Positions 33,746 through 44,314 of a DNA stretch of 64,000 nucleotides are shown in pieces; position 1 is the stretch's first letter, and each line of letters opens with the position of its first letter. Source of the DNA: Spizellomyces punctatus DAOM BR117. Taxonomy: Eukaryota. Where the stretch lies: assembly GCA_000182565.2 (NCBI GenBank), contig KQ257454.1. One strand, given 5' to 3'. The position numbers were made by a program, and so were the translations under genes. The notes beneath the pieces are model-generated. The model was not told the origin of the DNA, ran no database searches, and saw only the letters and a list, made by a program, of their open reading frames with translations.

Positions 33746-36700
33746 CTACTTGGTAAAATCTTCGCCATAATCAAAGAAGAGCTCTTTCTCAGCTTCGATC
33801 CGCCGCGCAGCGTATATGCCAACCCTGGAAACGATAGATGAGTGGGAACTGGTTTCAAAAAACAGGAGAAAACTGGAACACTGCACCTACCTAAGTTCGC
33901 CGCTCACCATCTTAACTAATTAGTTTAATCGAATCCGATAGATACCATTAGAACTTTGGCGAATTTAGTTCAACAGTTGAGCTCTCCTCACCAACTGGGA
34001 AGCAATTGGCTTTATCTGGATATTCTCCATGATTGATAAATCGGGTTTTGTTCCCTTTCCGTGAGGCATCCACTAATGGCGCATATTTATCTCCCAAGCT
34101 GAAAAGATAATTTAATTTGGACGCTGCATTGATGGCATCCCGTCTGCGTTTGACCGAACAACGTGGTGAGCTACAGTCAGAATCTGTCCTCAAGTTTGAT
34201 GGCACACCTATTTGATTCTGCAACGGATATCACCTATATATGGGGATGATGAGCACTATAGTACACGGAAAACTTAGATTCTTATACATACCCCTCCCGT
34301 GTATTCAGCAAGCAGCTCCCCTTTCTCCGCTAATATTTAATGCTCGTGAGTCGCATGCTTGAAGCAGGAAGACGTCGCACACCATACCAGGCTCACGTAA
34401 AAATGCTCCACGACCGTGCACCTCGCTGTCGCCAACACATAGATGCTATATTTTATGTGACGTCGCGGTTATCGCAAACTTCGGAGCTTGCAGTGTAGCG
34501 TCAGCAAAGTACCAATACCTTCTTCATATTTCTTTGCATAGCTTGATTATGGCAGGTTAAGGAGGATGTCTTCCGTCCAACAGCCCCACACTCCACTACA
34601 ATCAAGATATAATCTCAGTCTAATAAATGCACTGTTCAATATCACTACTTCGCTGTACCATCTGCACCGCAGGATCTGGGCAATATTTAAGTTAGTTTGT
34701 ATTCATCTTTCTACTAAAGTTCTCGCAGCACACGCACCTACACACATCAGGATCACATTCCCTCTCTTCGTGAACACATCTACAAAACTCCTTCCCGTTC
34801 GCTTGGAGTTTGAAATGACCTTTCACATGCCTGTTTTCCGTTTGGTCCCAGGTGGCTGGAACTTTAATCACTTTAGCACGACACCCCGATACGCAGTCAC
34901 AGCCAGGATATCGATATGGACAGAATTTGGAGCACGCGCATGTTCTCTCGCAAAAGTTCCCCGTTTTCACGCAGCTGCAGTTTTCTGTGCACACAGCGGT
35001 AGCGGGGTTATGTAAGTGATCTTCACAGCTGCAAGGAGCGGTCGGCGTACGCTTCCGAGTGGGAGAATATTCTATAAACAGAAGTATTGGAACAACTAGC
35101 GCGGAAGATAAAACATATTTGAGGACCTTTTTTGGGAACAGCAGGAGGTAGTGCCATGCGGCCAGAGATGGCGAGCCTATCCGCCTCCTTGATCATTTCG
35201 GTCAATGATGAAATTAAGGCCCCTTCGTACATAGCGAGCGCTGTGCAGTCGCCGTTAGTCAAGGCGATGACCATGTAGTAAACCTAAGTATCAACAGGTT
35301 ACATCGGATCAAGGAATGTATACTGCACATCGCAGTGGTATGTGAACTCACGTCTGCACACGACTTATTCGAATATGATATTGATATTCGGCAGTAGTCG
35401 CGTCCAAAGCATCGGTAAGCGACTCCCAGAGTCCTCAATTCATCACTTTTCCAGTCAGCAACACGGGCTGATATCGTGTCCTCACAGATTTCTGTCTCTC
35501 TCTTATATACAGATTTAATCAGGGTTGTCTCACAAGACGTTTCCTCATAAATAAGGGTATGTACCTGAAAATAATAGCAACAGTTTGAGCTGCATGGCGA
35601 AGAGACGCTTTTCGGGACATTGGGTATTTCGATGAAAGGTTTGCGCTGGCGCAACGCTGTAGTGGATACTAGGGCATTGGTAATCCAGTCTCCAAGACCG
35701 ACCGCAGCACACTGACCATCCTTATCGAAAGACATTAGATGTGTCTGACATCCAGCTAACCCACATATTTGACATATGAGATGGAATTCACCATCGAATG
35801 CGGTATGCGAGCGGCGATCTCCATCCGTGCTCAATCTTAAATGCCTGACGAAGATCACCGTCTCACACAGATTAGCACAGCAGGTCGACACAAGACTCAG
35901 AGGAGTGAATCTACCGTTTAAGCAGCTCGACAGCACTCATGCTTCCAATCTTCTGACGGGCAAGTGCTCGAAGAGTTCGGGTTACCTCCAGCTTCGTAGA
36001 AGTGAAGGTGGCCTTTCGTTTGCCATTTGAAAGGTTGGCGAAGAGCTCTTGCAGAACATCCCTCGGAGCGCACGAAGACAAGATATGCTCACTAAACGCA
36101 AGTATCTTTTGGCGCTCTGATGTTCATGCGAGCGTGAGGTTCAGAACCTGCCCCGCAATTCGGGACGGTTGTTGAGTCAGATAATGCAATGGCCCACCCT
36201 TATCATTTTCCATGGACCAGTTTGCCAAGTCCTCTACCCATTCATCGTCTTCTTCTCCTGAGCTCAACAAAGCAGAACGCCGTACGGGGTCATTCGGCTC
36301 CTACAGTTTGAAGAACCATATGTGAACAAACTAGCCAAAGGTGTCCCATAAGATGGCAGCACGGGGTTTCTGTTGTGAGTACCTTTACACTCCGTGCAGT
36401 TGGAATAAATGTGAAAGAGTTCATACGCTCGAACTTTCCTTCCACAACAACAATCGAGCTCCCCGTTGTTGATCCTGCCTCTTTTTTTATCGGAGTGTTT
36501 GACGGCGTCAATTCCCAGGAGGACGGACGGAATCCAGTTGTGTATGCTTTCAAGGCTCGCTTATATACCTTCTATAGAATTCGAATGCAACACGGTAAAC
36601 CGGTGGCTAATGCAATCCGCCAGCCAATGCGACAGATTCCCGAACCTTGCGCTGGTTGGTCAACTCCACATTCCAGCCTTTCTCCCACTTTTGCAGGTCA

Positions 36701-37198: not shown

Positions 37199-39826
37199 AT
37201 GGCTACAAACGGCCTTTCTGTTTCCGATGCGGTCGCTCTGGCGCAGCAGCTAGCAGCGACGTCCTTGAGTGATACATTACCTGAAAATCCAGAGGATCAT
37301 GTATCTTTCTTTGGAGAGGAGGTTATTGGAGCAGTTGACGCAAACCTATGTTTGAGAGTATGTCTCAATAGAGTTCCCACGTGAATTGTTTATGAACTGA
37401 CCTGTATCCCTTCCTTGAACAGGACCTTTATTTGAACGCAACAGCAGAAAACATGACAAAGATCATAAACCAGCTGGAAGATCGATTGCGCACTGGCCAA
37501 GGAGAAACGCTGTTCGAGATAGGTCTTGAAGGTAGGAACGAGTCAATTCCTTTTGGTGCACGGTACATCGGCGTTAACTCAGATTATTGTGATATGTAAA
37601 TAGAGGACGGAGGATCTATGAATTTGACACAGAGTGAATTTGATATGTGCTTAGAAACTATTCGACGCGCTGCCGACAAGCTCAACGCCGACGTGACAGT
37701 GATACATCAGCGGAACACGGTAGTATTAACATCCTCTGGGAAAAGCGCGCAAGAAGAAGGGAGGAGCAATGCGGACGCTTCCAAGGACTACTTCTACGCC
37801 CATGCTCTGATTAGACGGCGACCTGGCAAGGTGGAGGACATGACAGAACTGCGTATTTGCGTGGTTGGAAATGTCGATGCTGGAAAATCAACTTTGTTGG
37901 GTGTCTTGACTAAAGACATGCTGGATGACGGTCGCGGAAGAGCTCGCGTCAATCTCTTTCAGCACAAACATGAGATTGAGAGTGGGAGAACTAGCTCTGT
38001 TGGGATGGAAATCATGGGGTTTGATTCCAAAGGGAATGTAATCACTCCCTCAATGCTCGGCAAGGCTAAGCTGACCTGGGATGACATCTGCTTGCATTCG
38101 CCTAAGGTACAGAAGATGGCTTCTGCCACGCAAAGATATTTTCCGTTCGTGAGTCGACTCTAAACTCGAGTTATACAGGTGTTGACTTTCATGGACTTGG
38201 CTGGTCACGAAAAGTACTTGAAAACGACCGTATTTGGGATGACGGGAACCAGTCCAGACTTTGCTATGCTCATGGTACATGATGGAGTGATCGGATGCTC
38301 CTTATCGTGATTTAACCGTGTGCTCTCTTTCGCAGATTGGTTCAAATGCTGGGATAATTGGAATGACGAAAGGTAAAACAATTTTTCAGACAACATATCC
38401 CACGGAGAAGCTGACTTTATACTTGGATAAGAGCATCTCGGTTTAGCATTGGCCCTCAACGTGCCGGTGTTCATCGTCATAACCAAAATCGACATGTGTC
38501 CGAGTAACGTACTGGAGAGCACTATTAGCCAGCTTACTAAAATACTGAAGAGTTCTGGGTGCCGTAAGATTCCCATGTTCATCAACACGGTCGGCGATGT
38601 GCTGGTTACCGCGGGTAATTTCGTCAGCGAACGGTGAGTACGCGCATATTGAGGCCGAATCACCGTACGACCCTAACATTTTCCCAGAATTTGCCCCATT
38701 TTCCAAGTATCCAACGTCACTGGCCAAGGCTTGGATTTGTTGAAGCTCTTCCTGAATGTCATCCATGCAAACGGTATTGGAAAGTATAACCCAGACCAGC
38801 CGGTCGAGTATCAGATCACGGATACATTCAGCGTGCCCGGTGTTGGTACTGTCGTCAGTGGAACTGTCATTAACGGTACGTTTTAAAAGAGCAACACGAA
38901 CACGTACTAGATCCTGACCTTTGTTGCCAAAGGCATCGTGCATGTTGGAGACCAGTTGCTCTTGGGACCCGATGCGAACGGACATTTCATGTCGACAATG
39001 GTGAAGTCAATACACAGGAAGCGCGTCAATGTTCCTGTTGCATTAGCAGGACACAGCGCTTCCTTCGCCTTGAAGAAAGTCAAACGTGCGGGTATTCGGA
39101 AGGGCATGGTGATGCTGAGGTATGATTGCTACCCCTAATATGACATTGACTTAGACAATACTGAATATCCTTATCATCATACGCACGTTGCAGCAAAAAT
39201 GCCGCTGCGAAGGCCGTTTACGAATTTGAGGCGGAAATTCTTGTTTTGTATCACAGTACTACTATCTCGCAGAAGTATCAGGCGATGTTGCATTGTGGAT
39301 GTGTTAGACAAACGGCAAAGATTATTGGAATGGACAAGCAAGTATTACGAACCGGCGACCGTGCGTTTGTGCGATTTCGGTACGTAGGATACCCAAATAG
39401 TCATTGATAACATTTGACACCTTGAATTGATTTCTCATTGCTGTTCAGATTCATTCAGCACCCTGAATATCTCAAGGAGGGAACGCGATTACTGTTCCGT
39501 GAAGGTTGGTGCTAGCACGCTGCTTTAAGACGTTGTACATATACTCAATGCAATTGTCTCTCCCAGGTCGAACGAAAGGAGTTGGAAAGGTCGTCCGATT
39601 ATTCACTGAAGCCGAAGCTCTTAAGCCCAATCCACACCCGCAGGAGGACGTCAACACTGCCCGGAAGAAACCTCCAAATAACCCACCATCAGGATCCTCT
39701 CCATTAGCAATTGAAAAGAAGACATCTCGACGACATCATCATCACGGTGGGGGTCATGGAACCACTAAGGCAGATACCGGCCATCACAGAACGGGAGGAG
39801 GGGCCAGCGTCGCAGTAAAGACGTAA
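37199..39826 (+). CDS. GTPBP1: GTP-binding protein 1/2 (translational GTPase)
   Basis: [55 protein letters not shown]. Confidence 0.93.
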
Positions 39827-39975
39827 CGTCCCTAATGCTCTTCCGCGGTATTGTACGATAGTGCCGTACCACACACGAGGTCGCCGTTCTCGCATTTCTC
39901 TGCTGTGGAAAAGATGTTTTTACTGTAAATGCTTTCATTGTTTTGTGGATGGGTTCATGAGGAGTATATATTTCA

Positions 39976-40012
39976 TTTAATGAGCCAAAGGCATTTTAAT
40001 GAGCCAAAGGCA
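39976..40012. repeat. Short tandem duplication TTTAATGAGCCAAAGGCA x2
   Basis: Two identical 18-mers with period 19 in the GTPBP 3' region. Confidence 0.85.
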
Positions 40013-40299
40013 ATAAGGCAATTAGTCTTTCGAGGAGCATTGTGCACCATAGGAAAATTTAAAAATTACAAGACTTTCGTAAATAATCTTGTCCTGATTA
40101 TCATCCTCAGCCCAACCATAATAACGCCGTTTCTTCATGGTGATAACTGTTGGCTCGTTGCACTTGTTGAAGAAACGATTCTTGAATGGAGCGCGAAGGC
40201 GTATTAACCTGGTCTGTAATCAGGAATTGTTGTGTGAACGTTGTGAATGGAACAGAAGCGCCCGCCCGTAGAGCTCGTCGGATTTGCCATGGTAGCGAT

Positions 40300-40980
40300 A
40301 AATAAAAGAAAGGGAAGACAAGGTGAGTAGCAAGCCAGATACGTTCGACATCAGTGAGCCTCAAACATTGTTAAGGGCAAGCGGGCGATTACGGAACAAC
40401 ACGTATACGACTATCGTACGTGTGAGATGTTCCATAATCGCCCGCTTTCCCCAACTTTCTCATGAATGAGACGACGGTTTGACATCCTGTAGAGAAAGCA
40501 TGCTGGCACGACGCAGGGCTGGCGCTTTGGAGTTGTTTTACCCGCCTGCACTCTGACAAGGTAAAGGTCCAAAACACTGGCCGTGATTTATCGCTGCCCG
40601 GTCTACAAGCTAGGTCAAAACCGCAACCGGATCGGCCTTTGTATGGTTTTGTGCGTCGGCATCCAAAGGATTCCCCCGGGCTATGGATGTAACATCCATC
40701 ATCTCAACGAATCCACCATGTGCAGGATGACTGCCTTGACCTCACCAGGGAATCCGCCCAAGGAGTGGGATGACTTGCTTTGGGAGGTCAAAGCAAGTCA
40801 CCGATACCCTCGCGGCCACCTGCTGGACTGTGAATGTTGTTGCGACAGCAACATCTGACGCGGAAATGGCCAGGTCACCCCATCTGCCAGACCACCCACA
40901 TCCGAAGAGGCTCCTAAGCATCAGGCAAACTCGCCATATTCTTTGTGTTCAATTCAGTACTTACCAGATGAATGGCGATT
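40300..40980 (-). ncRNA. Candidate large structured ncRNA B
   Basis: Perfect 13-bp and 12-bp stems, a roughly 150-nt rod, G-U pairs favouring the minus strand, closing helix 40884-40875/40326-40317 followed by a U-rich tail; no recognisable protein. Confidence 0.6.
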
Positions 40981-41699
40981 GGGAAGATGGGTAGATGAGA
41001 GGTCGCGCAGAAAGAATGACGCGTTCCCAACTAATGTTGCGCGCACCTCTGAGTGCGCCACTATATCATGACTGTGCCCCATCACATGAACGTCACGTTG
41101 CAAAGTGCGCAGCTAGTGCGCGCCATGGGCGCCGCACCCCACCTTAGCCGCGCGATGAATCTAGCAGCGCAAGCAATTAATGAACTAGTTACTTGAAGAC
41201 CTGGCCAAACCCAATTGGTGCAGTCTTTGGGGTTTCAAAGGGCCATGGCAAAGAATTGACGCATATACTTGTAGTGATCTTGTGGATAGCTGAATATTCC
41301 ATAGTTGGTTGCATAACAGTGGGTTGCATGCAATAAATGAAAGACAAAGCTGCGACAAACTCCTCATCCATGCTCCAATCATGGTCGCAATGTCATTATC
41401 GGGGGTATCTGGCCAATGCACTTGCAATGAAGCAGGCAGGGGACCTGCAACCCACCATGCCGTATTTGTTGAAGATACCTCTATCAGCGACAAGTAAAAA
41501 CTGACATCGAGGCAAGCGTCTCGTGGTCCAAGAGCGAATCTTGTCCCGTCCCTTCATCCGAATATTCTGCCCAAGGTGGACGACTGCTAACTTTGACAGG
41601 TTTCTGCAGCTAGTGCCACGGACTGGCCAGGTATGCAATGAGATCCATCGGGTAGAGTAGCATTGCCAAGAACCCTCGAGCTGTCAGCCTGATTGTGCC

Positions 41700-42230
41700 C
41701 TTTCGTATCTACAAAATGTCAAATTTGTGAAGCTTCACATCACAGAGCGTCGGCGTACGTTTGAGATATGAGGCGCGTCGGTTGTCAAAGCTCAAAAGCT
41801 AATGGACTTGGAGTTCACGAGAGTATTGATGTGACGACTTTCGGCCCGAATCATCTATCATCTACCCACTGCCGATCTCCCATATCTAAGGCTAAGTTCA
41901 AGTTTAATTGACGATAAATGATTGATCCAAATCGGGAGCTCTCTGACGCACAAACCATACATGATGTCGAGCAGTGGGAGACTATTGTGAAGTCAGACGA
42001 TGATTCTCTGATTGAGAACCAGACATGGGATTTACCACCTGGAAGATCATACCTGGCGAAAAGGAGTAGCGAATGCCCAAGGAACAGGACCCTTCACCAA
42101 AAGTTAATATCAGCGCGCCGAAACTTCTGCTGCCCAATCCTAGCAAGAGTTTAAGGTTGCCGCGGACATGAGTTTTAAATGACGGCAAAGCGCCGCGTGG
42201 CCAAAACTTTGAAGAATCTCAAACCCAGCT
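41700..42230 (+). mobile_element. Degenerate Ty1/Copia LTR-retrotransposon relic
   Basis: DVEQWETIVKSDDDSLIENQTWDLPPGR resembles the Copia pre-RT motif (W..AM..E..SL..N.TW.L..LP.G); broken CQIC and VH..DV..GP integrase-like traces upstream and a K.R.VAK RT-like trace downstream. Confidence 0.55.
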
Positions 42231-42410
42231 TTCAACTCGAGCTAGATTCCTGCCTCAATCCATCTGCTCGGATCTTACTACATGGTAGAATCAGGAAACA
42301 TAACCATCACTTTTTCTTATTGTCCACATCGCCTCCCCACTGACCCTCCATCCAAACTAATATATACAAAATGCAGATGTTGGTCCAGTAAGGTTTGCCG
42401 ACTAAGCTGC

Positions 42411-44314
42411 TCATTTTTGTTCTTCCTCTTCTTCTAGGCAACCGAGCTGAAGACCTTCCTCCGCAGGAATCCCCAACTCTCTTGCCGTATTATATCTAAC
42501 CAACCATGGGTGCCGCAGGACGTGTTCCAGTGGAAGCCGCTCGTCAGGATTATACCGCAAAAGCTGTGTGAAAAAAAAAATTCAGCTTCTGAATCAAAAC
42601 AAGGATGGAATACAACAGCCGCCTTACGCCTGAGATAAGGTCCTTTGCTTCAGCGCTGACATAATCAGGAATACGCAGGTCCACCTGTGCGATTCGTTTA
42701 TAGGTTGCTCGATAGCTGGTCTGATCCTCAAAAGGAGGTACTCCAACCAGAAACTCGTAACAAAGCACGCCTAAGGACCATAAGTCAACATTCCGACCGT
42801 GATCGCGGCCCTCCACCATCTCTGGAGGCAGATAGTCGAGGGTACCGCACAGTGTCTGCCGTCTATGAGGCAGAATGGGTGAGGATCGGTGGATACGGAG
42901 GAGTCATTATATTTAAGTACACACCTTGTGTTAGGAGCATGAACTGACCACCCAAAATCAGCGATTTTCAATTCTCCTTTCATTCCCAGTAGAAGGTTTT
43001 CTACAAAGCATATCAGCGTGGTGACTCGCATGACTGTAAGGGCAAGTATTATATATAGTACCAGGTTTGATATCACGATGGATAACGTTCTTCTTATGCA
43101 AATATCCTAGTGCATTTGCCATTTGCGCGATGTACTAAGAAGCAAATGGGAGTTTATACAGAGTCCTTCCGCGTGGTAAAAGCTGGGTAGAATATAGACG
43201 AATACCTTTGAAGCCCTTCTTTCCGAGAATCGCCCATATTTGCTCAGCTGCTTATACAGTTCCCCTTTCGCAGCATACTCAAGAATAAGGTACACTCGCT
43301 TAGCATCGTAAAAGTACCCAAAAAGGCGCAAAATGTGCGTGTGCCTGAAAAACGGGTTGCTGCGTAAAAATACTGCGATTCCAGTACGTAGCGTCTCCCC
43401 AAACATACCTGAGATGAGACTGAATCTCAATTTCACGTCTCAGTTGTTTCTCAACTTTTGCGTTGGCGAGCTCACTCTTGAAAAGGATTTTCAAAGCCAC
43501 GACAAAGCCACTACGCTTTTCACGGGCCAGATACACCCGTCCAAATTTCCCTTTCCCAAGGGCCCTGCCAACGTCGAAATCATTCAAGGACCATTTTCGA
43601 CCACTGGGATGAGTACTGCCGTCACTGCTATTTGGGCGATGGAAACTCAGCAAGAGTCAAACAAGGATGTCGCCGCCAAACCTACACTGAAGATGCCTGC
43701 GGATAGATACTCTGGTTTAAAAGGACACTGTTCTGCTTGGACTCTGGAACACGCTCGGGACTTCTCATCTGCACAGTCTCGTTGAACTTGACCATCTTTG
43801 GCGTTGGAGGGGTGGCAACCTTCACTCCTGCAGTAGTGGCTGCTGTGTTTGGGGCAGCATTTTCTTTTTGCGCTTGCGGCGGCCTTTGTGATGTTTGGGG
43901 CGGCTTGGCTCGGACTCCTTTTCCGTCAACCACAGACTGGGTTGCATTCAAGCGATTCGCAGTACTGTATTTAGTGCCAGTCGGTGACCCTGTGGCCGCT
44001 GTCGTTGGGTGTGGTTTGAGATTGGACAAGTTTGATCTCTTCAATGGTGCAATTTCTGTTGTCGGACGACCAGCCATTGCTTGTTTCGTCAAAGGAACAC
44101 GAAGAGGTGCCGCTGACGATTTGGTTAGACCTTGACGGACAACCTGACGCGCGAAAGGGTCAGATGAGAATTTACAGCCGGGTCGGGAAAACAGGCAGCA
44201 ATAGATGGGATATTCTCCAGTATATGTAGCAAAGGGGACACAAGAAACTCCGTAAGGTTATGGCCTTACCTTCGGTGCCGTTTGTTCCTTATCTTTCAGC
44301 GTTGTTGCGCGCAT
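42411..44314 (-). CDS. IPL1: Aurora kinase
   Basis: [66 protein letters not shown]. Confidence 0.95.

What the first reader, a model, noticed from the sequence alone, without database searches (positions are those of the whole stretch)
40300..40980. Candidate large multi-armed ncRNA B on the minus strand
Seen: a perfect 13-bp stem 40379-91/40435-47 inside an 86-nt hairpin (40370-455); a roughly 150-nt rod 40474-624 of stacked helices (CUUGUAGA/UCUACAGG, GUGUUUUGGA/UCCAAAGCGC, UUUACC/GGUAAA); a perfect 12-bp stem 40771-82/40789-800; helix 40668-79/40745-55; GGCCAUUU/AGGUGGCC; a UUCG-capped arm. A long-range helix GAUGGGGUGA (40884-75)/UCACCUUGUC (40326-17) encloses about 570 nt and is followed by a U-rich tail. 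Mismatches on + are repeatedly A-C, which are G-U on -, indicating the strand. The long arms resemble fungal telomerase RNA, but there is no CUAACCCUAA template; the unpaired ACAAAACCAUACAAA has only template-like 10-nt periodicity. RNase P/MRP, SRP and U3 boxes are not convincing.
Basis: partly seen in the sequence, partly recalled or inferred. Interest (0 to 1): 0.8.

Follow-up and report, generated by a model that had tools for sequence, protein, structure and literature searches.

The report
Hairpin-rich long intron of a non-coding transcript
The strongly folding stretch is real and lies on the minus strand, but RNA reads show it is cut out as an unusually long intron of a small, apparently non-coding transcript, so it is not shown to be a free-standing large RNA such as telomerase RNA.

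Summary
The minus strand of 40300-40980 folds at -260.8 kcal/mol, z -6.6. By GC-corrected folding energy, 40301-40600 (minus) is the most stable of 638 windows. The 24-nt inverted repeat at 40375-40451 is the longest local one in the 64 kb. The 151-nt rod at 40474-40624 is stable only on the minus strand, z -3.3 against +0.1.

Stranded poly(A)-biased RNA reads show a joint from 40965 to 40213 on the minus strand. It skips 751 nt with GT..AG ends and is carried by 5 reads with 5 different starts. Read depth inside the skipped part is 0 to 1.9, against 27-34 in the exon downstream. The whole structured block therefore sits inside a spliceosomal intron (40214-40964) of a short polyadenylated minus-strand transcript that has no convincing ORF.

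No Rfam family matches. There is no TTAGGG-type telomerase template, no tRNA and no second copy in the window.

Three things could not be tested: conservation, genomic copy number and small RNAs. I call it a real structure of modest interest; a stable or diced RNA product from it remains open.

The parts
40214..40964 (-). 751-nt U2-type (GT..AG) spliceosomal intron holding the whole structured block. The 5' splice site is CUG|GUAAGU at 40965/40964. The 3' splice site is UUACAG|ACC at 40214/40213. A CUGAU branch-like motif ends 6 nt before the AG.
   Evidence: table 5: joint 40213->40965, skips 751, ends CT..AC on the + strand, 5 first-mate-on-minus reads with 5 starts, 0 on plus. Sequence.
40965..41013 (-). 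Upstream exon of the spliced minus-strand transcript (at least this much). The minus-strand depth bin 41014-41114 is 0, so the exon is short or another intron follows.
   Evidence: table 2: bin 40913-41013 minus depth 6.65, next bin 0. Joint in table 5.
39903..40213 (-). Terminal exon of the minus-strand poly(A)+ transcript. Its 3' end lies somewhere within 39903-40003. It holds only a 38-aa ORF (40025-40138) with no credible relatives.
   Evidence: table 2: minus depth 8.7, 34.5, 26.8. for translations; the only 2 hits are bacterial Cna_B repeat proteins.
40214..40306 (-). 3' end of the intron, which is also the 5' part of a more abundant unspliced short isoform. Depth falls from 28.2 to 0.26 at about 40288-40306, and 20 reads have a loose end beyond 40288.
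   Evidence: tables 2 and 7.
40370..40455 (-). 86-nt near-perfect hairpin with about 37 bp in four stacked helices and a 3-nt loop. It is miRNA-precursor-like in shape.
   Evidence: I1; 20-bp helix p 0.98, inner helices p 0.87 and 0.86; z -8.1/-8.3; weak mir-2009 shape match at 29.7 bits against a gathering score of 90; longest local inverted repeat in the window.
40474..40624 (-). 151-nt rod of stacked helices that depends on G-U pairs and is stable on the minus strand only.
   Evidence: helices (p 0.67-0.98); z -3.3 on minus (0 of 100 shuffles as good) against +0.1 on plus.
40765..40806 (-). 42-nt hairpin with a 14-bp stem (12 bp perfect) and a 6-nt loop. It competes with an alternative pairing to 40732-40752.
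   Evidence: I5 and I2; p 0.11 in the ensemble; z -8.0/-7.1.
40316..40326 (-). 3' strand of the long-range helix whose partner is 40875-40885. It is followed by a pyrimidine/U-rich tract, 40316-40300.
   Evidence: 11 bp, 3 G-U, p 0.69.
40875..40885 (-). 5' strand of the long-range helix.

Best explanation
The structured block is the body of an unusually long (751 nt) GT-AG spliceosomal intron.

Setting. The window is eukaryotic, probably fungal (inference). A roughly 2.3-kb gap lies between two convergent genes: a + strand GTPase with EF-Tu-like domains, whose poly(A) site is about 40086, and a - strand protein kinase, whose 3' end is about 42250. The gap carries a weakly expressed minus-strand polyadenylated transcript.

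Two RNA forms (shown).
- A minor long form starts upstream of 40965 and is spliced from 40965 to 40213.
- A more abundant short form has a sharp 5' boundary at about 40288-40306 and runs unspliced to the same 3' end.
Neither form has a credible ORF, so I read the transcript as non-coding.

Inferred steps. When the long form is transcribed, the minus-strand precursor folds into three strong local elements: the 86-nt hairpin, the G-U-dependent 151-nt rod and the 42-nt hairpin. The block is then excised as a lariat and, for the most part, degraded.

Origin and function (inference). The near-perfect stems look like young local inverted duplications in weakly constrained non-coding DNA. The most likely functional consequence, if there is one, is that the ~37-bp hairpin is a substrate for an RNase III or Dicer enzyme. 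The structure is not needed to bring the splice sites together.
For: - Splicing: one search shows the joint 40213->40965, skipping 751 nt with GT..AG on minus, in 5 reads with 5 starts, all minus-sense.
- Library sense: the flanks calibrate it. The + GTPase has first-mate-on-plus depth 46-56 against 0.4-8.7 on minus, with a poly(A) loose end at 40086. The - kinase has first-mate-on-minus depth 28-52. The Pfam domains lie on those strands.
- Depth: inside the intron minus depth is 0.26, 0, 0, 0.8, 0.31 and 1.88 and plus depth is 0. The downstream exon has 27-34.
- No coding capacity: spliced and unspliced translations are full of stops. The 38-aa ORF hits only 2 bacterial Cna_B repeat proteins among 1.84 billion representatives.
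- Structure is real and minus-sense.
- No known RNA family: 0 matches at gathering score in 64 kb, and only weak hairpin-shaped or far-sub-threshold matches at E up to 10.
- Single copy within the 64-kb window.
Against: - Only one RNA library was laid, about 6% of it was read, and it is 3'-biased and poly(A)-based. It cannot see a stable non-polyadenylated product, small RNAs or lariats.
- The joint rests on 5 reads, against a depth of about 27-28 in the adjoining bins, so splicing is the minor fate of RNA at this locus. It could be opportunistic splicing of a rare read-through.
- The short form's 5' boundary could be a processing site instead of a transcription start.
- The minus-only stability of the rod and the 27:0 excess of G-U over A-C are what selection on an RNA would give. 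That fits poorly with a purely neutral DNA relic.
- A 186-nt contig of unknown library kind (run X10) covers 40473-40658 at depth 10, almost exactly the rod. If that run is RNA, a discrete stable RNA may exist.
- No comparative data could be obtained, so conservation and covariation are unknown.
Confidence: 0.68

Rival explanations
1. The intron is a primary transcript for small RNAs (a milRNA- or hairpin-siRNA-type precursor). Dicer or another RNase III cuts the ~37-bp hairpin at 40370-40455, and perhaps the rod, out of the precursor or the excised intron. The host transcript would exist mainly to deliver these hairpins.
For: - The hairpin has a stem of 7+20+6+4 bp with few bulges and a 3-nt loop, z -8.
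- Its only Rfam resemblance is to miRNA precursor models: mir-2009 at E 6e-4 and 29.7 bits, far below the gathering score of 90.
- It sits in a spliced non-coding host, as many intronic miRNAs do (established knowledge, recalled).
- It is the longest local inverted repeat in 64 kb.
Against: - No small-RNA data were examined.
- The precursor is very weakly expressed in the one library laid, with depth 0-1.9.
- The Rfam matches score hairpin shape only.
- No target-like similarity was found in the window.
- A near-perfect stem is equally expected from a neutral young palindrome.
Confidence: 0.2
2. It is an independent, stable, non-polyadenylated structured ncRNA of about 570 nt (40884 to 40317, minus), or a smaller one such as the 150-190-nt rod. 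It would be made from its own promoter or released from the intron, and would belong to an undescribed class. The observed splice would then be incidental.
For: - The region is the most stable minus-strand window of 638.
- The rod is stable on the minus strand only, with G-U pairs.
- A long-range helix with p 0.69 encloses the block.
- A contig of unknown kind covers 40473-40658 at depth 10 while its neighbours are absent.
- The library laid cannot detect non-polyadenylated RNA.
Against: - The block is excised by splicing.
- There is no Rfam family.
- There is no TTAGGG-type template: 0 exact matches, and none of the 7 one-mismatch matches in the window lies between 39139 and 48156.
- There is no tRNA-like element.
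- The T-run after the helix is only 4 long.
- The long perfect stems are unlike old structural RNAs (inference).
- The long-range closure is no better than in shuffles.
- The X10 contig is equally explained as a stray DNA fragment.
Confidence: 0.1
3. It is a relic of a mobile or self-copying DNA element, such as a foldback element, a MITE or an introner-like element, which brought its own hairpins and now happens to be spliced. There would be no RNA function.
For: - The intron is long and has an unusually stable predicted structure. Those are the two non-copy-number traits reported for fungal introner-like elements (PMC3609843: abstract and passages read).
- Two of the three hairpins fold equally well on both strands, as DNA palindromes do.
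- Symmetrical, hairpin-forming proliferating introns are reported in Hypoxylaceae (PMC8469720: abstract read).
Against: - There is no second copy in the 64-kb window.
- No terminal inverted repeats span the intron ends, and no target-site duplication was seen at the intron or at the 86-nt hairpin (read by eye).
- The rod is strand-specific.
- Genome-wide copy number could not be tested because no genome is held.
Confidence: 0.2

Closest known systems
Long, highly structured spliceosomal introns of fungi, including introner-like elements (ILEs; PMC3609843, abstract and passages read)
   Same: It has canonical GT..AG ends with branch-like and pyrimidine elements. It is much longer than the neighbouring introns: the gaps between coding ORF pieces of the flanking GTPase are about 60-140 nt at most. 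Its predicted folding energy is significantly lower than that of shuffles.
   Different: ILEs are defined by many near-identical copies in unrelated genes. Here there is no second copy in 64 kb, and the genome could not be searched. The host here is a non-coding transcript, not a protein-coding gene.
Intronic or hairpin precursors of fungal microRNA-like RNAs (milRNAs; literature seen only as search listings)
   Same: An ~86-nt near-perfect hairpin on the transcribed strand of a Pol II-type poly(A)+ non-coding host, with a weak shape match to miRNA precursor models.
   Different: No small RNAs have been shown. Expression of the precursor is very low in the library laid. No target is known.
Protointrons: opportunistic, poorly conserved splicing in non-coding transcripts (PMC6726248, search listing and start of abstract only)
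   Same: It is a minority splicing event in a non-coding transcript, with 5 joint reads against a depth of about 27-28 nearby.
   Different: The splice sites here are near-consensus (GUAAGU, UUACAG), and the intron is very long and structured. Conservation was not tested.
Fungal telomerase RNA
   Same: It lies in a gene-free gap between convergent genes, has long helical arms, and has a spliceosomal 5' splice site nearby. Spliceosomal 3'-end processing of fungal telomerase RNA is recalled, not checked in a paper here.
   Different: There is no template for TTAGGG repeats and no Rfam telomerase match. The block lies downstream of the 5' splice site and is removed with complete splicing.

Membership tests
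U2-type spliceosomal intron | Exon-exon junction reads with GT..AG ends on the transcribed strand | tested here: met
   table 5: joint 40213->40965, CT..AC on + (GT..AG on minus), 5 minus-sense reads with 5 starts.
U2-type spliceosomal intron | Consensus 5' splice site, branch-point motif and pyrimidine tract | tested here: met
   GUAAGU at 40964-40959. CUGAU ends 6 nt before the AG. Looser UUCAC motifs lie 15-33 nt upstream. A pyrimidine tract lies at 40326-40296. Branch-point use itself is not shown.
Fungal telomerase RNA | Template complementary to about 1.5 telomere repeats | tested here: not met
   TAACCCTAA has 0 exact matches. The 7 one-mismatch matches in the window equal the chance expectation (8.5), and none lies between 39139 and 48156. 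The organism's own telomere repeat is not known to me, so an unusual repeat is not excluded.
Fungal telomerase RNA | Match to curated telomerase RNA covariance models | tested here: not met
   no telomerase family at gathering score, or at E up to 10.
RNase P / RNase MRP / SRP / U3 / snoRNAs / snRNAs | Match to the Rfam covariance model of the family | tested here: not met
   0 matches in 64 kb at gathering score; in 39500-41800 at E up to 10 there are three miRNA-shape matches and one weak EBv-sisRNA-2 match, all far below gathering score.
microRNA-like RNA precursor | Stable stem-loop of about 60-100 nt on a transcribed strand | tested here: met
   z -8.1; only minus-sense reads in the region, at low depth.
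microRNA-like RNA precursor | Discrete Dicer-dependent 19-25-nt RNAs from one arm | not testable with these tools
No small-RNA run was examined.
Introner-like element / proliferating intron | Many near-identical copies in unrelated genes | tested here: inconclusive
   There is no second copy in the 64-kb window. No whole genome is held.
Introner-like element / proliferating intron | Longer than regular introns, with lower folding energy | tested here: met
   751 nt, with MFE -274.2 against a shuffle mean of -242.7, sd 8.6.
MITE / foldback transposon | Terminal inverted repeats flanked by a target-site duplication; multi-copy | tested here: inconclusive
   No inverted repeat joins the ends of the block. 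The 86-nt hairpin has 24-28-nt inverted arms but no flanking duplication seen by eye. Copy number in the genome is not testable.

The most novel reading that the evidence does not exclude
The intron of this small non-coding host gene is the real product. After splicing it would yield either a stable, highly structured intronic RNA (the G-U-dependent 151-nt rod, or the whole ~570-nt closed domain) or a cluster of Dicer-made small RNAs from the 37-bp hairpin. The host would then be a fungal counterpart of animal miRNA or snoRNA host genes, carrying an RNA of no described family.
Probability: 0.2. Interest if true: 0.55.

Novelty: new member of a known kind. Interest (0 to 1): 0.3.

Why it matters
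As it stands, this is a useful correction. The strongest predicted RNA structure in the 64-kb window is not a missing housekeeping RNA such as telomerase RNA or RNase P/MRP. It is the inside of a long intron in a lowly expressed non-coding transcript.

It would matter more if the hairpins prove to be processed. Intron-borne small-RNA precursors and stable intronic RNAs are poorly documented in filamentous fungi. A 751-nt structured intron, in a genome whose neighbouring introns are about 60-140 nt at most, also bears on how new long introns arise, for example by introner-like or palindrome-derived routes.

Tried and rejected
- Whole-genome copy number: no genome is held for this window.
- Earlier scan notes: nothing by place, by relatives or by sequence.
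- Synteny-based relatives: 11 metagenome loci encode relatives of the GTPase exon at 38-81% identity. None shares similarity with 39827-42410 beyond two short chance-level matches on one locus (23 nt and 15 nt, E 0.017 and 0.72), and none has the kinase nearby. No alignment or covariation test was therefore possible.
- 'Zipper' idea, that the structure shortens the distance from the 5' splice site to the branch point: the native path length is 22 against a shuffle mean of 12.9, and 53 of 60 shuffles are as short or shorter. Rejected.
- snoRNA host idea: no Rfam snoRNA match. By eye I saw no H/ACA or C/D box arrangement in the right places (recalled consensus, no tool).
- Micropeptide idea: the 38-aa ORF has only 2 hits, both bacterial Cna_B repeat proteins at 38-43% identity over 29 residues. 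I judge these to be chance.
- ORF 41188-41553 (minus, 122 aa) and the kinase C-terminal piece have no Pfam family.
- Viral origin: one 20-mer of the hairpin arm has no exact match in viral contigs. This is a very narrow test.
- Organism name: the exact look-up of three window ORFs returned no names.
This is no evidence either way.
- Contigs of X10, X11 and X13 are short patches of unknown library kind. I do not count them as evidence of transcription.
- Region 35601-36100 (minus), the second most stable window, overlaps coding-like ORFs and has no Rfam match. Not pursued.

Full report
**Setting.** The window has 42-53% GC with no strong skew. No prokaryotic-style genome is held for it. Its genes are broken into short ORF pieces, so I treat it as eukaryotic and probably fungal (inference). 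The finding lies in a gap between two convergent genes. On the + strand, ORF pieces up to 39826 carry EF-Tu domain 2 and 3 signatures of a GTPase. On the - strand, pieces from about 42411 upward carry a protein kinase domain.

**The observation.**
- 40300-40980 folds at -260.8 kcal/mol on the minus strand (z -6.6) and -234.3 on the plus strand (z -5.7). None of 20 shuffles is as good on either strand.
- In a scan of 638 overlapping 300-nt windows, with MFE regressed on GC, 40301-40600 (minus) is the most extreme (z -3.5). Three more windows between 40501 and 41000 are among the ten most stable on that strand.
- Only four local inverted repeats of 14 nt or more exist in the 64 kb. The 24-nt one at 40375-40451 is the longest.
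- The excess stability sits in three local elements (100 shuffles each): the 86-nt hairpin 40370-40455 (z -8.1 minus, -8.3 plus), the 42-nt hairpin 40765-40806 (-8.0, -7.1) and the 151-nt rod 40474-40624 (-3.3 minus, +0.1 plus).
- The flanks 40214-40369 and 40860-40964 are not structured on their own.
So does the excess of G-U pairs: 27 internal G-U and no A-C mismatch in the minus fold, against 10 G-U and 2 C-A in the plus fold.

**What the RNA shows.** One public RNA run with raw reads (X21) and three contig runs were laid on 39600-42600.
- In X21, 912 reads were laid from about 6% of the run, 728 of them at 99% identity or more.
- The flanking genes calibrate the library. The first mate is sense: the + GTPase has depth 46-56 on plus, and the - kinase has 28-52 on minus. 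Coverage is confined to the last 300-400 nt before poly(A) sites, and a poly(A) loose end marks the GTPase 3' end at 40086. It is therefore a 3'-biased poly(A) library.
- On the minus strand a transcript covers about 39903-40306 at depths 8.7, 34.5, 26.8 and 28.2. Depth then falls to 0.26, 0, 0, 0.8, 0.31 and 1.88 across 40307-40912, and returns to 6.65 in 40913-41013.
- The only joint reported in the 3 kb runs from 40965 to 40213. It skips 751 nt with CT..AC on the + strand, which is GT..AG on minus, in 5 minus-sense reads with 5 different starts and none on plus.
- The sequence at the ends is CUG|GUAAGU and UUACAG|ACC.
- The whole structured block therefore lies inside a spliceosomal intron, 40214-40964. 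No plus-sense read falls inside it.

**Two forms of the transcript.** The depth of about 28 in 40214-40306, inside the intron, and the abrupt drop beyond it indicate a more abundant short form. That form has a 5' boundary near 40288-40306, and 20 reads have a loose end beyond 40288. The drop is sharper than the library's own decay, which I judged from the GTPase: it still has 34% of its peak depth at a similar distance from its poly(A) site. The spliced long form is the minority, with 5 joint reads against a depth of about 27-28 in the adjoining bins. Whether the boundary is a transcription start or a cleavage site is not known.

**Coding capacity.** Translations of the spliced and unspliced RNA are interrupted in all frames. 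The first AUG common to both forms opens a 38-aa ORF (40025-40138). Against 1.84 billion representatives it has two hits, both bacterial Cna_B repeat proteins matched over 29 residues. I take these as chance. The transcript is best read as non-coding.

**Known families.**
- Rfam gives 0 matches in the window at gathering score.
- At E up to 10 in 39500-41800 there are four matches. Three are miRNA-precursor shape matches to the 86-nt hairpin (best mir-2009, 29.7 bits against a gathering score of 90). One is a weak match (20 bits, E 9) to EBv-sisRNA-2.
- There is no tRNA-like element.
- The TTAGGG-type telomerase template has no exact match. Its one-mismatch matches (7, with 8.5 expected by chance) all lie outside the region.
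- Telomerase RNA, RNase P/MRP, SRP, U3 and snoRNAs are therefore rejected as far as these models reach.

**Origin and function.**
- No second copy of the intron or its parts exists in the window. The genome could not be searched.
- Metagenome relatives of the GTPase (11 loci, 38-81% identity) share neither the intergenic sequence nor the kinase neighbour. No covariation test was possible.
- The idea that the structure brings the splice sites together fails. The structural path from the 5' splice site to the branch-like motif is 22 steps, against a mean of 12.9 in shuffles, and 53 of 60 shuffles are as short or shorter.
- The near-perfect stems, two of which fold equally well on both strands, look like young local inverted duplications.
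- The G-U-dependent rod looks more like an RNA-level feature.
- Fungal introner-like elements are reported as long introns with stable predicted structures but in many copies (PMC3609843, abstract and passages read). Symmetrical hairpin-forming introns that proliferate are reported in Hypoxylaceae (PMC8469720, abstract read). Membership in either group needs the copy-number test that I could not run.

**Verdict.** The object is the inside of a 751-nt intron of a lowly expressed, poly(A)+, apparently non-coding transcript. It is not shown to be a free-standing large ncRNA. What remains open, at roughly 30% together, is that the intron yields a product: small RNAs from the 37-bp hairpin, or a stable structured intronic RNA. 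The library used could not have seen either.

Noticed in passing
window 41115-41316 (+): A short plus-strand poly(A)-library signal (depth 17-19) with nothing on plus on either side. It diverges from the minus-strand exon at 40965-41013. A TATAT motif at 41062-41066 lies between the two, which suggests a bidirectional promoter for two short non-coding transcripts (sequence; inference).
   Followed up: partly
window 39903-40086: The 3' UTR of the + strand GTPase (poly(A) at about 40086) and the 3' end of the minus-strand transcript overlap by roughly 100-180 nt. The two are a convergent sense-antisense pair.
   Followed up: no
window 39976-40012: A perfect tandem duplication of an 18-nt unit, 19 nt apart, lies inside that overlap (D2).
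   Followed up: no
window 40473-40658: A 186-nt contig from run X10 (library kind unknown, depth 10, 0 differences) covers almost exactly the 151-nt rod plus the A/C-rich stretch 5' of it. Its neighbours are absent from that run. It may be a stray DNA fragment or a hint of a discrete RNA.
   Followed up: no
window 40928-40972: A contig in run X11 matches with 4 differences in 45 nt. It then continues for 103 nt that look related but carry indels. It is possibly the orthologous exon 1 and 5' splice site region of a relative (tables 7 and 8).
   Followed up: no
window 35601-36100 (-): This is the second most stable minus-strand region of the window (z -2.9). It overlaps coding-like ORFs and has no Rfam match.
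   Followed up: partly
window 40245 and 40257: Minority G>C (3 of 28) and A>C (8 of 41) reads on the minus-sense transcript. They are most likely read-tail artefacts, because loose ends nearby run into C-rich letters (tables 3 and 7).
   Followed up: no
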